Shown piece after piece: positions 3,387 through 15,192 of a stretch of DNA of 64,000 nucleotides. Every line of letters starts with the position of its first letter. Within the stretch, counting starts at the first letter, position 1. The DNA comes from Chlamydiia bacterium (lineage in GTDB: Bacteria > Chlamydiota > Chlamydiia > Chlamydiales > JAAKFR01), in NCBI GenBank assembly GCA_963827485.1, contig CAWHBB010000003.1:23476-87475 (forward strand), written 5' to 3'. Both the position numbers and the translations under genes were made by a program. Under the pieces are notes generated by a model that had not been told where the DNA came from, searched no databases, and was given only the letters and a program-made list of their open reading frames with translations.

Positions 3387-3707
3387 GAATCGGGTACGGG
3401 CTCTGCAAACGTTGAGACTCTTGCATAACCCCAGCTTGTTACATAAATCGGCAAATTAATAACAATCTTGTTCATCTTGCCACGCCTCGCGATCATGCGC
3501 ATCCTGTTCCTTTTTGAAGAAGGAAGCAAGATATGCAGGATCGCGAGGCGTGGCAAGATGGGCAAGATGAACTTATTTTCAAGAGGGTAGCTGAACATGT
3601 TACGCAACGGTCTCAACGTTCACATTCACGAAAAAAAGATCACCATTTTGCGAAAAATGGCTCCGAGGGGCTATTTCGTGAACGTTTGCAGGGCCCGCGC
3701 CCGATTC
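3387..3707. repeat. RE-C copy 1: palindromic landing-pad repeat with 27-nt terminal inverted repeats, interrupted by RE-A1
   Basis: 3387-3413 GAATCGGGTACGGGCTCTGCAAACGTT is the near reverse complement of 3681-3707. Its internal module is shared with 12709-12854. Confidence 0.7.
3414..3614. mobile_element. RE-A1: about 200-bp palindromic miniature element
   Basis: 16-nt imperfect TIRs (3414-3429 GAGACTCTTGCATAAC; 3599-3614 GTTACGCAACGGTCTC). Flanked by AACGTT on both sides (3408-3413, 3615-3620). Core is shared with 35226-35405, 62331-62475 and 17888-18012. Confidence 0.65.
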
Positions 3708-3888
3708 CTGAGCAAAAAACTTGCTTACAAATGGTTGTGGGGCAGAAGGTCGGACACAGGCTCACCCGCGGGCAGAGGCACTAAAAGTAAATCATATTCC
3801 AGCTGCAGAAAAAGAAATTTATAGTTATAACTTCCGGTCTGCCGTTGGGCAGTCGTTGTGAAGACATCCATTTTCATCTGGAGGAGTT

Positions 3889-12436: not shown

Positions 12437-12496
12437 AAATTGCTTCTACACTGTTCGGATCACTGGTCAGATCATTGGCAGACCACTGGAGGGATT

Positions 12497-12679
12497 GTGG
12501 AAGAGAAGAAGCGGCTCTACAAGAAAATAGCCCATCTCGAATTTCTCAATGACCAGCTGCAGAGCGAGCTTCGCTATATCGACCGGCTGCTCAGGCTGAT
12601 CGGCTTTCCCGAAGGTTTAAACACGGTCAAAGAGAGTGCCGAAGAGGTACGCGGCGAGGAAGGCTTCGAAGAGGTCTAA
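12497..12679 (+). CDS. small coiled-coil hypothetical protein
   Basis: In-frame GTG start. EEKKRLYKKIAHLEFLNDQLQSELRYIDRLLRLIG heptad-like pattern. Weak call. Confidence 0.3.
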   Translation: MEEKKRLYKKIAHLEFLNDQLQSELRYIDRLLRLIGFPEGLNTVKESAEEVRGEEGFEEV

Positions 12680-12854
12680 TGGTTCAGCCTATGCTCTCTT
12701 GAAAACAAGATCGGGCCCGGGCTCGCAAACGTTCACGTTCACGAAAGAGTGCCGATACATTGTTTATCCAAAAGGCCTTCTTCCTTACCTTCGATCCATG
12801 GAGAATAGAGACCTCTTTGCGAAAAATAGCCCCAGGAGCTCTTTCGTGAACGTT

Positions 12855-14449
12855 CCCTAATTGCGCCGATTAAGTCAACATTTTCTCTTTTCCTCATTCT
12901 CAAGAGCTTCTTGGGAGTAGACCAACACAAGACTTCATCCACGGTTCCCTACGGGATCTATTTAAGAGGACTTTTTTCTTGCCCTCGTCCCATTATGCTG
13001 TGCGAATGGCTCAAGCCTGACAATGTGAACGACGGCTCTCTAGATAAACTAGGGCCAACGGTTATGACGTCTATGGCTTGGACATTCGGTCTGTCTTGTG
13101 AGGTTGACTCTTTCGCTCCTATTGTTTTTTTGCAAAAAAATGGAATCAAAGTTTTAGGGGGCGCCCCGCAGAATGGCCTTTAGGCCATTCCAAGAGCCTG
13201 TTCAGGCTCTCGCCGGCGAAGCCGGCGGCGGGGCGCCAGGGCAGGCCCTTTAGCCTTTGACACCACAGCTTCTTTGGAAGCGCCCTCTGGCGTACCCTCA
13301 GAAGGCCTTTCTTCTCCTGTCATAAAAGGCGTTTCCGTCACAAGCATCCTATGTAGAATCACTGCAAGCTTGCGGGCAACTGCAACCGCTGCTTTCTTAT
13401 GACCCTTCTTCTTGGCCAGCTTTAGACCCCAGCTTTTTAATTTGCTAGAGCCCTTTGTACGCGTTAGATGGACCACGGCTGCTTCTACAAGAAGAGACCT
13501 CGTGTTCGTATCCCCACACTTTGAAATCTTGCCTGTTCTCGAAGTCTCGCCAGATTCATATAGCCGGGGGGTGAGACCAAGGTAGGCGGCAACGCTTTTA
13601 GAATTTTTGAATCTAGATGGATCTCCAATGGCTGTTTTGAAGCTGAGGGCTGTCTGCACACCTACTCCAGGTACTGTCATCAGTACTTTGACCACCTCAT
13701 CCTCTTTAGCTAGCCCTTTAAGATAGCACTCTAGTTCCTCTACCTTTGCATTAACTGACTTGATGCTGCTCAAAAGCGCCTCCACAGATATGCTAAGGGC
13801 AATATCATTCTTATCTATCGAGCTCATCACCTTGGCCTCAAACTCTTTCCTAGAGGCCTTGATGCGTATGCCGTAGGACTTGAGAAGTCCACGTAGGGTA
13901 TTTTTGAGCTTTACCGCTCCTCTTATTAGGGCCTTTCTGGCTGTCACCGCCGTGCGTATGGCTACATCCGCCTCGCTTTTGATGGTGACCTCCTTACAGT
14001 AGCTGCCCCTGAGGGCTTGGGCTATCCCTCTGGCATCATTCTTATCATTTTTGTTGATCTGAGTGGAAAGTAAAGCGGCCATTTGCCGTGCATCGATGCA
14101 GACAGCCGGTAGGGCAAGCTTTTGAAGCTCTCGAGTAAGCCAATTGCTCAGAGAGCCGCTTTCAAGGCCTACCTTTTCAATAAGCAGCCCCTTACTTTGG
14201 AGATAAGCGGCTATCTGCTCAGGACCAGAATAAACCACAGTCTCGTGGATAACCTTGCCTCTCTCATCGATTACACAGATAGATGTTTCTTCCATAGAAA
14301 CGTCGAGTCCAACATAATGTCTCACGGGTTGCTTCTCCTTTTGTAATAGTTAACGATTGTTAACTTAATGCATGGAGAGCCTAGGCTACTCCGAGGCTTT
14401 TTAGCCAGAGAGCAACCCGCCTTTCCATTCCAACGCGCAATTACAGCAT
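12855..14449 (-). mobile_element. IS110/IS1111-family insertion sequence (about 1.6 kb)
   Basis: Boundaries come from comparison with the uninterrupted RE-C copy 1. GTGAACGTT is present at both junctions (12846-12854, 14450-14458). Sub-terminal 9-nt IRs: TAATTGCGC (12858-12866) and GCGCAATTA (14435-14443). Confidence 0.75.
13180..14325 (-). CDS. IS110 family transposase (DEDD RuvC-like recombinase)
   Basis: N-terminal YVGLDVS...ICVID, later DKNDARGIA, and a C-terminal MTVPGVGVQTALSF...AAYLGLTPRLYESGE motif. GTG start with AAGGAG SD. Confidence 0.9.
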   Translation of the reverse strand: MRHYVGLDVSMEETSICVIDERGKVIHETVVYSGPEQIAAYLQSKGLLIEKVGLESGSLSNWLTRELQKLALPAVCIDARQMAALLSTQINKNDKNDARGIAQALRGSYCKEVTIKSEADVAIRTAVTARKALIRGAVKLKNTLRGLLKSYGIRIKASRKEFEAKVMSSIDKNDIALSISVEALLSSIKSVNAKVEELECYLKGLAKEDEVVKVLMTVPGVGVQTALSFKTAIGDPSRFKNSKSVAAYLGLTPRLYESGETSRTGKISKCGDTNTRSLLVEAAVVHLTRTKGSSKLKSWGLKLAKKKGHKKAAVAVARKLAVILHRMLVTETPFMTGEERPSEGTPEGASKEAVVSKAKGPALAPRRRLRRREPEQALGMA

Positions 14450-14532
14450 GTGAACGTTTGCGAGCCCGGGCCCGATCTTCTCCATAAGAAGAGATTTGGG
14501 AGCTATTTCATGAACGTGAACAACTATGAACT

Positions 14533-15192
14533 TTAAGGAGGGCTGGCTTCGGGCGCTTTCTGCTTTCTAATCAGCATCAGCGATCGCAAATAGGGAATAA
14601 GACCGCTGCCATATTGGGCAAAAGAGATCCAGTCGTGAATCCGGACAAAGTAGACGAGCGAGAGAAGGCTCCCTATTAGGCTCAACCAGAAGAAGGAGGC
14701 GCCGATTTCGCTTGTCTGCTTTTTCTCAGCAAACCACCACTGCACCCAAAAGCGAGCCGCAAAGAGAAAGCCCCCGAGGCAGCCCATCAGGTGCCAGACG
14801 AGAGAGGTCTGCTGTTCGAAGAGGGGGGTTGCCATCCATTTGGGAGAGAAGAAGAGGAAAAAGAGCAGCACGAAGAGGGTGGCTGCGATTTCAAAGGCAA
14901 TGACCGTTGAAAAGGCTTTGGGCGCCCTCTTCTTTTGCATCAGGTCGAGATTGCGCCAGGCGATGACAGCAGTGACCGCCTGGATGAGCGCAAAGGGAAA
15001 CTGCATCTGCACGATGTAGTGGACCATCTGAAACGCATTGCCCGCAAGCGATAGCTGCCAGAAAAGCCGCGGACTGACGCTGCGGCCCGCTCGCTCGCTT
15101 GCAATCCAGAGAACCAGCATGCGCATCGAGAAAAAGAGGCTGGGAAGTAGGCCTAGGGGCAGATAGAGAAGGGCGCGCAGGCTATCGCTCAT
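14533..15192 (-). CDS. lipid-A-disaccharide synthase N-terminal (LAB_N) domain membrane protein
   Basis: Two LAB_N-like repeats (SLFFSMRMLVLWIASERAGRSV...; FLFAARFWVQWWFAEKKQTSE...). Confidence 0.65.
   Translation of the reverse strand: MSDSLRALLYLPLGLLPSLFFSMRMLVLWIASERAGRSVSPRLFWQLSLAGNAFQMVHYIVQMQFPFALIQAVTAVIAWRNLDLMQKKRAPKAFSTVIAFEIAATLFVLLFFLFFSPKWMATPLFEQQTSLVWHLMGCLGGFLFAARFWVQWWFAEKKQTSEIGASFFWLSLIGSLLSLVYFVRIHDWISFAQYGSGLIPYLRSLMLIRKQKAPEASPP

What the first reader, a model, noticed from the sequence alone, without database searches (positions are those of the whole stretch)
12709..14477. IS110/IS1111-family element sitting in a palindromic landing pad, with candidate bridge-RNA regions and a 9-nt internal match to its own junction
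A DEDD-type IS110 transposase gene (13180-14325) lies in a 1.6-kb insert that splits RE-C copy 2. The insertion point is immediately after GTGAACGTT, and that 9-mer is present at both junctions (12846-12854 and 14450-14458). Nine-nt sub-terminal IRs (TAATTGCGC / GCGCAATTA) and a long 325-nt non-coding region 3' of the transposase (12855-13179) both fit the IS1111 subgroup. IS110-family recombinases are known to use an element-encoded bispecific bridge RNA and often target REP-like palindromes. Within the 3' non-coding arm, ATGTGAACG (13023-13031) is identical to the sequence spanning the right junction (14448-14456), so it may be a guide segment. The 124-nt 5' leader (14326-14449) can also form a long-range stem (GGGTTGCTCTCT with AGGAGAAGCAACCC) that would occlude the SD.
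Basis: partly seen in the sequence, partly recalled or inferred. Interest (0 to 1): 0.7.

Follow-up and report, generated by a model that had tools for sequence, protein, structure and literature searches.

The report
RNA-guided IS1111-type jumping gene
This is an intact insertion sequence of the known IS110/IS1111 kind. It carries its own two-loop guide ("bridge"/"seek") RNA and has homed into one arm of a palindromic repeat, so it is a clear but ordinary new example of a system described in 2024.

Summary

The 3' non-coding arm encodes a roughly 155-nt RNA (window 12937-13089, minus strand). It has two internal-loop modules.
- A covariance model built only from six related elements finds it as the single hit in the window (77 bits, E 7e-15).
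- Its six helices are supported by compensatory changes.
- Its two target loops change with the flanking DNA across nine related IS families.
- In the smaller six-family test, the two donor guides track the families' end variants.

Corrections:
- The repeated GTGAACGTT is not a target duplication. It combines the element's conserved end (..GGGAAC) with a tandem GTTCAC already present in the target.
- The element is 12854-14449 plus one AC core.
- The empty site is GCAAACGTTC-AC-GTTCACGAAAG. An intact copy lies in the other arm of the repeat.

One oddity remains: the right-target guide pairs with only 5 of 8 flank bases, against 6-8 in relatives.

The parts
12854..14449 (-). Insertion sequence proper, 1596 bp (1598 bp with one copy of the AC core). 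In its own orientation it runs from ATGCTG-TAATTGCGC... to ...GCGCAATTA-GGGA.
   Evidence: The ends were defined by comparison with multi-site copies of related families, which share AC|AT[A/G]CTGTAATyGCGC and GCGCrATTAG[A/G]GA|AC next to unrelated flanks. A second copy that is 99.8% identical lies at a different locus, with identical junctions.
14450..14451 (-). Left copy of the 2-nt crossover core AC (GT on the + strand).
   Evidence: AC precedes the left end in all nine families.
12852..12853 (-). Right copy of the 2-nt crossover core AC.
   Evidence: The conserved terminal ..GA-AC is present in all families, and the donor guide UAGGGAAC includes it.
13180..14325 (-). DEDD recombinase/transposase gene, 381 aa, GTG start. 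It carries a C-terminal tail about 35 aa longer than relatives.
   Evidence: Pfam and NCBIfam matches. D8, E55, D94, D97 and the G250..P253....S258-G259 motif are invariant in an alignment with 9 relatives. The C-terminal domain aligns to IS621 recombinase 8wt6 with E 5e-14.
12937..13089 (-). Bridge/seek guide RNA: a target-binding module followed by a donor-binding module.
   Evidence: A covariance model built from six relatives, without this element, hits 12931-13093 (-) at 77.4 bits, E 6.9e-15, as the only hit in 64 kb. The region folds alone into exactly these two modules, z = -2.4. Across 7 families, 98.4% of cells are paired, 14 of 27 pairs have compensatory changes, and 0 of 500 shuffles reach that.
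13058..13068 (-). Right-target guide loop GUCAUAACC-GU, complementary to the top strand of core plus right flank.
   Evidence: The homologous loop in eight relatives pairs with 6-8 of the first 8 right-flank bases. Here it pairs with only 5 of 8, plus the 2 core bases.
13022..13032 (-). Left-target guide loop U-CGUUC-AC-AU-U. It is identical to the top strand of the left flank (5 nt), the core, and the first 2 nt of the element.
   Evidence: The segment changes with the left flank in nine families. Own pairing scores 43, against a permutation mean of 17, and only 4 of 362,880 permutations reach it.
12995..13001 (-). Right-donor guide ACAGCAU, complementary to the left end ATGCTGT.
   Evidence: It pairs at 7 of 7 positions. 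It varies with the left-end variants ATGCTG, ATACTG and ATGGCG as GCAU, GUAU and CGCCAU.
12944..12951 (-). Left-donor guide UAGGGA-AC, identical to the right end TTAGGGA plus core.
   Evidence: It varies with the right-end variants as GGGAAC (this element), GAGAAC (most relatives) and AAGAAC (Bradyrhizobium family).
12858..12866 (.). Right sub-terminal inverted repeat (GCGCAATTA in element orientation).
14435..14443 (.). Left sub-terminal inverted repeat (TAATTGCGC in element orientation).
12873..12878 (-). Outward-facing TTGACT (-35-like) box near the right end. It is a candidate half of a promoter completed only at the circle junction.
   Evidence: TTGAC is conserved at this position in most related families. 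The promoter role is inferred from published IS1111/IS110 circle-junction promoters.
14326..14418 (-). 5' leader with a long-range stem (14407-14418 with 14326-14339) that sequesters the Shine-Dalgarno sequence.
   Evidence: z = -4.7. The stem is conserved in relatives, with compensatory changes.
12707..12749 (+). Unoccupied arm of the palindromic repeat (RE-C copy 2). It holds an intact copy of the target: GCAAACGTTC (12725-12734), AC (12735-12736), GTTCACGAAAG (12737-12747).
   Evidence: Removing the element plus one AC from the other arm restores a perfect 43-nt inverted repeat of this arm.
12839..12851 (-). Right flank of the insertion, the inner part of the occupied arm (GTTCACGAAAGAG in element orientation).
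   Evidence: The second copy has the same flank.
14452..14479 (-). Left flank of the insertion, the outer part of the occupied arm (..GGGCTCGCAAACGTTC in element orientation).

Best explanation
**What it is**
This is an intact, probably recently active IS1111-group member of the IS110 family. It encodes a DEDD/serine recombinase. Downstream of that gene lies a bridge (seek) RNA of about 155 nt with two internal-loop modules.

**Guide layout**
- In the 5' module, one loop strand (GUCAUAACC-GU) is complementary to the top strand of core plus right flank.
- The other strand of that module (CGUUC-AC-AU) matches the top strand of left flank plus core, so it pairs with the bottom strand.
- In the 3' module, ACAGCAU pairs with the element's left end.
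- UAGGGA-AC in the 3' module matches the element's right end plus core.

**How it most likely works**
By analogy with IS621, ISEc11 and ISPa11, the RNA brings a circular copy of the element (junction ..TTAGGGA-AC-ATGCTG..) together with the site GCAAACGTTC-AC-GTTCACGAAAG. Recombination occurs at the shared AC and makes no duplication.

The site lies in each arm of a palindromic repeat. One arm is occupied here and the other is intact.

A conserved leader stem hides the ribosome-binding site. An outward -35 box at the right end probably forms a promoter only in the circle.

**Shown and inferred**
- Shown: the sequence features, the guide/flank and guide/end co-variation, helix covariation, and the second insertion at the same site.
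- Inferred: RNA expression, circle formation, the chemistry, and the promoter.
For: - **Protein family:**
- **Second copy:** a copy that is 99.8% identical sits at another locus, at the same position of another copy of the repeat. Assembled unitigs from a soil run cover 12844-13185 and 13168-14461 and stop 8 nt past the right core and 10 nt past the left core, which is consistent with several copies sharing these short flanks.
- **Ends:** conserved ends next to unrelated flanks in the related families fix the boundaries and the AC core.
- **RNA alignment:** the 3' arms align into conserved stems with variable loops.
- **Target guides:** guide loops match their own flanks better than any reassignment. 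For the right-target guide, 1 of 362,880 permutations reaches the own score. For the left-target guide, 4 of 362,880 do.
- **Donor guides:** they vary with the end variants.
- **Helices:** 14 of 27 pairs show compensatory changes and 98.4% of cells are paired, against about 50% when partners are slid.
- **Independent model:** the covariance model built without this element hits only here.
- **Fold:** the region folds into two modules by itself.
- **Guide order:** the top-strand match lies 5' of the bottom-strand match, as published for IS1111 seekRNAs.
Against: - There is no RNA or read evidence for expression, circles or an empty site. Only assembled contigs from three soil runs were available, and none carries this locus.
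- The right-target guide pairs with only 5 of 8 flank bases, the weakest of nine families.
- The structural alignment behind one search was made by hand and so leans towards the structure.
- The model does not detect the more distant Bradyrhizobium-type relatives. Their equivalent layout was read by eye.
- No Rfam family matched, and the two weak matches listed are chance-level hits to unrelated families.
Confidence: 0.87

Rival explanations
1. The element makes a 9-bp target-site duplication (GTGAACGTT) on insertion into a site holding a single copy of that 9-mer. Its ends would then be 12855/14449, as the reader drew them.
For: The 9-mer flanks the insert on both sides. A diverged copy of the repeat at 3600-3710 has one arm with a single GTTCAC unit: GCAAACGTTCACGAAATAG.
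Against: - Relatives with unrelated flanks keep ..GAGAAC as their last bases, so AAC is element sequence.
- The donor guide UAGGGAAC covers those bases.
- The unoccupied arm, both here and in the second locus, has the tandem CGTTCACGTTCAC. Removing the element plus AC restores a perfect 43-nt palindrome.
- The family is reported to make no duplication.
Confidence: 0.05
2. The guide RNA is real, but the right-target loop is not used or is only loosely used. Site choice would then rest on the left-target guide plus core. Alternatively, the element's best site is elsewhere (ideal right flank GGTTATGAC) and the repeat-arm insertions are tolerated near-matches.
For: - Only 5 of 8 right-flank bases pair, at alternating positions and with no wobble rescue. 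Eight relatives pair at 6-8 of 8.
- No better register exists on either strand of the site.
- A variant motif GTTCACGTTCATGAA at 14507-14521 fits slightly better.
Against: - 5 of 8 is still the best score in that guide's row. The off-diagonal mean is 2.0 with sd 1.2.
- Both known insertions, and the short unitig overhangs, share the same flank.
- The ideal site is absent from the window.
Confidence: 0.25
3. The 3' arm is only a 3' untranslated or terminator region of a decaying element. On this view the matches to the flanks are chance.
For: - The whole 337-nt arm does not fold better than shuffles (z = -1.5).
- Single 7-8-mer matches are expected by chance (my estimate).
- There is no Rfam hit.
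Against: - The guide/flank permutation tests and helix covariation.
- The independent covariance-model hit.
- An intact ORF with all catalytic residues.
- A 99.8% identical second copy.
Confidence: 0.03

Closest known systems
IS1111-group elements with a seekRNA: ISEc11, ISPa11, ISKpn4, ISPst6 (Siddiquee et al. 2024, bioRxiv 10.1101/2024.04.26.591405)
   Same: - Sub-terminal inverted repeats with short terminal extensions, and the long non-coding region downstream of the transposase gene.
- The GL-P----SG motif.
- A guide RNA with the top-strand match 5' of the bottom-strand match, the two overlapping at the insertion point.
- No target duplication. An apparent duplication is assigned to the element, as they did for ISEc11.
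- A repeated palindromic sequence as target, as for ISPa11.
   Different: - The transposase is only about 40-58% identical to anything retrieved. The nearest is 58%, from an unnamed metagenome contig.
- It is 381 aa, against the 330-350 aa typical of the group.
- The target sequence, a tandem GTTCAC in a repeat arm, is different.
- The right-target guide is a poor match.
- No sequence comparison with those named elements was made here.
IS621 / IS110-group bridge RNA (Durrant et al. 2024, PMC11208160; structures 8wt6-8wt9)
   Same: - Two-loop bispecific RNA, with left and right guides for both target and donor.
- A 2-nt core shared by donor and target.
- A guide that runs 2 nt past the core into the partner DNA (CGUUC-AC-AU), which recalls the handshake guides.
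- DEDD plus serine catalytic residues.
- A REP-like target.
   Different: - The RNA lies in the right end, downstream of the gene, not in the left end.
- The guide order within each loop is reversed.
- The core is AC, not CT.
- The sub-terminal repeats are long (9 bp).
- The proteins align only over the C-terminal domain (E 5e-14).
ISPpu9/ISPpu10 and other REP-targeting IS110-family elements (PMC12288879; Tobes and Pareja 2006, as cited in PMC11208160)
   Same: Orientation-specific insertion into a repeated extragenic palindrome. This serves as a harmless landing site between convergent genes.
   Different: The host lineage is different (an environmental chlamydia-like organism, going by the neighbouring genes noted), and so is the repeat family. 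No sequence relationship was tested.

Membership tests
IS110 family (DEDD transposases) | N-terminal DEDD RuvC-like domain plus C-terminal Transposase_20 domain | tested here: met
   Pfam PF01548 (E 4e-16) and PF02371 (E 3e-23). NCBIfam NF033542 at 261 bits against a cut-off of 140.
IS110 family (DEDD transposases) | Catalytic D-E-D-D residues and the conserved Ser-Gly of the C-terminal domain | tested here: met
   D8, E55, D94, D97, S258 and G259 are invariant among 10 aligned homologues. YESG aligns with the same motif of IS621.
IS110 family (DEDD transposases) | Site-specific insertion without a target-site duplication | tested here: met
   Two independent insertions lie at the identical position of two repeat copies. 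Only the 2-nt core is shared once the conserved ends are assigned. No empty orthologous site or circle was available.
IS1111 group | Sub-terminal inverted repeats of 7-17 bp with short terminal extensions | tested here: met
   The 9-bp repeat TAATTGCGC / GCGCAATTA sits 6 nt from the left end and 4 nt (plus core) from the right end.
IS1111 group | Longer non-coding region downstream of the transposase gene | tested here: met
   The 3' arm is about 326 nt and the 5' leader is 124 nt.
IS1111 group | GL-P----S(T)G motif in the C-terminal domain | tested here: met
   GLTPRLYESG is present, and G250, P253, S258 and G259 are invariant. The motif is as described.
IS1111 group | Transposase length 330-350 aa (typical, not defining) | tested here: not met
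   This transposase is 381 aa, against 339-383 aa for the homologues listed. The excess is a basic, proline- and alanine-rich C-terminal tail.
Bridge RNA / seekRNA | [quoted passage not shown] | tested here: met
   The loops are at 13058-13068 and 13022-13032. Flank co-variation was tested in nine families, helix covariation and the model hit. The right-target match is weak in this element (5 of 8).
Bridge RNA / seekRNA | Second loop matching the element's own two ends (donor) | tested here: met
   ACAGCAU pairs with ATGCTGT at 7 of 7 positions. UAGGGAAC matches TTAGGGAAC at 8 of 8. Both vary with the end variants in relatives.
Bridge RNA / seekRNA | The RNA is expressed, binds the recombinase and is needed for circle formation and insertion | not testable with these tools
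   No RNA runs hold this sequence, and only assembled DNA contigs were found.
Bridge RNA / seekRNA | Match to a curated covariance model of the family | tested here: inconclusive
   Rfam 15 gave no related match even at E up to 10; the two weak matches listed are chance-level hits to unrelated families. Whether Rfam holds such a family is not known to me, and the published models were not available.

The most novel reading that the evidence does not exclude
In this element the right-target guide is only loosely complementary to the flank it actually uses: 5 of 8 bases, at alternating positions. Eight related families pair at 6-8 of 8. Either recognition of a tandem-hexamer site inside a palindrome needs little more than the left guide and core, which would be a relaxed targeting rule. 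Or the element's true preferred site (..CGTTC-AC-GGTTATGAC) lies elsewhere, and the repeat arms are tolerated near-cognate sites.
Probability: 0.25. Interest if true: 0.45.

Novelty: new member of a known kind. Interest (0 to 1): 0.3.

Why it matters
The element adds a well-resolved natural example of RNA-guided recombination in an environmental chlamydia-like genome, and several of its relatives are also annotated in Chlamydiae genomes assembled from metagenomes. All four guides, the AC core and the site are assigned by comparison across nine families.

It is also a worked caution for annotation. An apparent 9-bp duplication was produced by the element's conserved end plus a tandem repeat in the target. 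Such cases mislead boundary and target calls, a problem the seekRNA authors also describe.

The poorly matched right-target guide is a small natural experiment on mismatch tolerance. That matters to people reprogramming these recombinases. Otherwise the finding is ordinary.

Tried and rejected
- **Genome census.** The genome search and the fetch from genomes were closed, so no census of copies or of the repeat family was possible.
- **Empty site from neighbours.** Exact-protein look-ups for three flanking genes, meant to find an IS-free strain, found nothing.
- **Reads.** Only three soil-metagenome runs were listed and two of them hold part of the element, all as assembled contigs. There were no joints, circles or empty sites. 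No run holds the unique flank.
- **Rfam 15.** The scan of 12600-14600 at E up to 10 gave only two chance-level matches.
- **Exact-word matching.** Matching the arm against target or donor alone gives many 6-8-mers at chance level. It could not identify guides without the comparative alignment.
- **Other registers for the right-target guide.** A search of both strands of the site found nothing better. The guide's ideal site is not in the window.
- **Reach of the covariance model.** The six-relative model does not reach the 40-46% identical Bradyrhizobium-type and other metagenome relatives. nhmmer also missed them. Their layout was read by eye.
- **Promoters and terminators.** The scan found nothing above shuffle level within the element.
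- **Guide in the 5' leader.** This idea was rejected. The leader has no flank-dependent variable segment and is explained by the stem over the ribosome-binding site.
Full report
**Observation**

- The minus-strand ORF 13180-14325 (381 aa, GTG start) matches Pfam DEDD_Tnp_IS110 and Transposase_20. It also matches NCBIfam NF033542 'IS110 family RNA-guided transposase' at 261 bits against a cut-off of 140.
- Its C-terminal domain aligns with the IS621 recombinase of PDB 8wt6.
- D8, E55, D94, D97 and the G..P....SG motif (S258-G259) are invariant among ten homologues.
- GTGAACGTT flanks the insert at 12846-12854 and 14450-14458. The 9-bp sub-terminal inverted repeats are at 12858-12866 and 14435-14443. 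The outer arms of the palindromic repeat (12707-12736 and 14450-14479) are 30 nt and perfectly complementary.
- The internal 9-mer at 13023-13031 is identical to 14448-14456.

**Surroundings and copies**

The exact transposase is, however, encoded on a 72-kb metagenome contig at a different locus (L001), and also on a short contig that is essentially the element alone (L002). In L001 the element is 99.8% identical. It sits at the same position of another copy of the same palindromic repeat, with the same flanks: GCAAACGTTCAC|ATGCTG... and ...TTAGGG|AACGTTCACGAAAGAG.

Contigs from a soil run cover 12844-13185 and 13168-14461 and stop about ten bases outside the element on each side. That pattern is expected if several copies share short flanks and then diverge.

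Several of the nearest transposase homologues (about 50% identity) are annotated in Chlamydiae genomes assembled from metagenomes. The nearest of all is 58% identical.

**Boundaries**

I fetched multi-site copies of three related families and compared where the copies stop being alike.
- All begin AC|AT[A/G]CTG-TAATyGCGC and end GCGCrATTA-G[A/G]GA|AC, next to unrelated flanks.
- Six further families give the same picture.

So the AAC at 12852-12854 belongs to the element or core, and only AC is common to both junctions. The element is 12854-14449 plus one AC, and the empty site is GCAAACGTTC-AC-GTTCACGAAAG.

One is the conserved end ..GGGAAC. The other is a tandem GTTCAC already present in the target.

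Two internal checks agree.
- The unoccupied arm, in the window (12725-12747) and in L001, reads exactly GCAAACGTTCACGTTCACGAAAG/A.
- Removing the element plus one AC restores a perfect 43-nt inverted repeat.

A diverged repeat copy at 3388-3707 has one single-unit arm. That keeps a small residual chance for the duplication reading.

**The guide RNA**

Aligning the 3' arms of this element with those of relatives shows conserved blocks separated by short variable segments. The blocks form two modules.

Module 1:
- outer stem, 13069-13080 with 13012-13021;
- 5' loop strand GUCAUAACC-GU, 13058-13068;
- hairpin, 13033-13057;
- 3' loop strand U-CGUUC-AC-AU-U, 13022-13032.

Module 2:
- closing stem AUUCG/UGGAU, 13003-13007 with 12937-12941;
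- 5' loop strand with ACAGCAU, 12995-13001;
- two nested inner stems (GGGA/UCCC and GAGGGC/GUCCUC), 12953-12991;
- 3' loop strand with UAGGGA-AC, 12944-12951.

The region folds into exactly these two modules by itself (z = -2.4).

On a hand-made structural alignment of seven families, 98.4% of cells are paired. Fourteen of 27 pairs show compensatory changes, no shuffle of 500 reaches this, and sliding the partners drops pairing to about 50%. The alignment was fitted by eye, so it leans towards the structure.

A covariance model built from six relatives, without this element, finds one hit in the 64-kb window: 12931-13093 on the minus strand, 77.4 bits, E 6.9e-15. Rfam 15 has no matching family, and the two weak matches it listed are chance-level hits to unrelated families.

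**Guides change with the DNA they should read**

Across nine families, the 5 nt before AC-AU in module 1 equal the 5 nt left of the insertion point in 4-5 of 5 positions. Own pairing scores 43 against a permutation mean of 17. Only 4 of 362,880 reassignments reach it, and those ties come from three families that share a TAT flank.

The 5' loop strand pairs with the first 8 bases of the family's own right flank. Own pairing scores 61 against a mean of 30, and it is the unique best of 362,880.

In six of these families, the donor guides follow the end variants.
- Left ends ATGCTG, ATACTG and ATGGCG go with GCAU, GUAU and CGCCAU.
- Right ends GGGAAC, GAGAAC and AAGAAC go with the same words in the RNA.

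The order, with the top-strand match 5' of the bottom-strand match and the two overlapping at the insertion point, is the one published for IS1111 seekRNAs.

**What does not fit**

The right-target guide pairs with only 5 of the first 8 right-flank bases, at alternating positions with no wobble rescue. This is the weakest of the nine families, though still the best score in its own row.

No other register on either strand is better. The guide's ideal site is absent from the window.

Both known insertions share the same flank, so the mismatch is tolerated. I cannot say whether it is a relaxed rule or a drifted guide.

**Other anatomy**

- The 5' leader folds so that GGGUUGCUCUCU pairs with AGGAGAAGCAACCC, covering the Shine-Dalgarno sequence next to the GTG start (z = -4.7). 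The stem is kept, with compensatory changes, in relatives. It holds no flank-dependent segment, so I read it as a translational block rather than a guide.
- An outward TTGACT at 12873-12878 is conserved as TTGAC in most families. With a -10-like hexamer spanning the joined ends, it could form the circle-only promoter reported for this family. This is inference.
- In several relatives the closing stem of module 2 is followed by a run of U. That suggests the RNA ends there. In this element the run is weak.

**Mechanism, comparison and verdict**

The best reading is RNA-guided, duplication-free recombination at a shared AC between a circular copy and the repeat arm, as shown experimentally for IS621 and ISEc11 (PMC11208160; bioRxiv 10.1101/2024.04.26.591405).

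All defining sequence features of the IS110 family, the IS1111 group and the bridge/seek RNA that can be tested on sequence are met. Expression, protein binding and circle formation could not be tested.

The differences are:
- a divergent transposase with a roughly 35-aa C-terminal tail;
- a new target, a tandem hexamer in a palindromic repeat arm;
- a weak right-target guide.

This is a new member of a known kind. Earlier notes of this scan describe similar ordinary cases in other genomes. I did not use them as evidence.

Noticed in passing
window 3388-3707: A diverged copy of the same palindromic repeat carries a different insert of about 201 bp (3414-3614). The insert has imperfect 16-nt terminal inverted repeats (GAGACTCTTGCATAAC / GTTACGCAACGGTCTC) and is flanked by AACGTT on both sides. 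It sits in the arm motif GCAAACGTT|..|AACGTTCACATTCACG. So two unrelated mobile elements have hit the same short motif of this repeat family.
   Followed up: partly
window 14503-14522: A third, partial copy of the target motif lies about 25 nt outside the repeat arm: minus strand TGTTCACGTTCATGAAATAG. Its CATGAA variant fits the right-target guide slightly better than the site actually used.
   Followed up: partly
window 13180-13290: The transposase has a C-terminal tail about 35 aa longer than its relatives: basic and rich in proline and alanine (..PSEGTPEGASKEAVVSKAKGPALAPRRRLRRREPEQALGMA). The stop is followed by a GC-rich palindrome GGGGCGCCCC and the palindrome TTTTTTTGCAAAAAAA.
   Followed up: no
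L022 about 3480-3553 (Bradyrhizobium erythrophlei): A related element has lost the whole guide-RNA region. The deletion apparently occurred between two CATGAACC direct repeats, while the right end was kept. This is a natural guide-less copy.
   Followed up: no
L043-L052, L063-L064, L067-L071: Related IS1111-type elements with the same AC core, and the same RNA layout wherever the 3' arm was inspected, occur at several loci in Parachlamydiales, Simkaniaceae, Chlamydiales and Rhabdochlamydiaceae genomes assembled from metagenomes. Each has its own target, for example TTCTCG-AC-TTTGCA and CAAGA-AC-CTATCCT. The distance from the TTGAC box to the right end is 18-19 nt in families whose left end is ATACTG. 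It is 21 nt in most families with ATG.. left ends, though P0091 (ATGCTG) lacks a clear TTGAC box.
   Followed up: partly
window 12440-12679 and 14533-15192: The repeat and the element lie between the 3' ends of two convergent genes, so the insertion disrupts no coding sequence.
   Followed up: no
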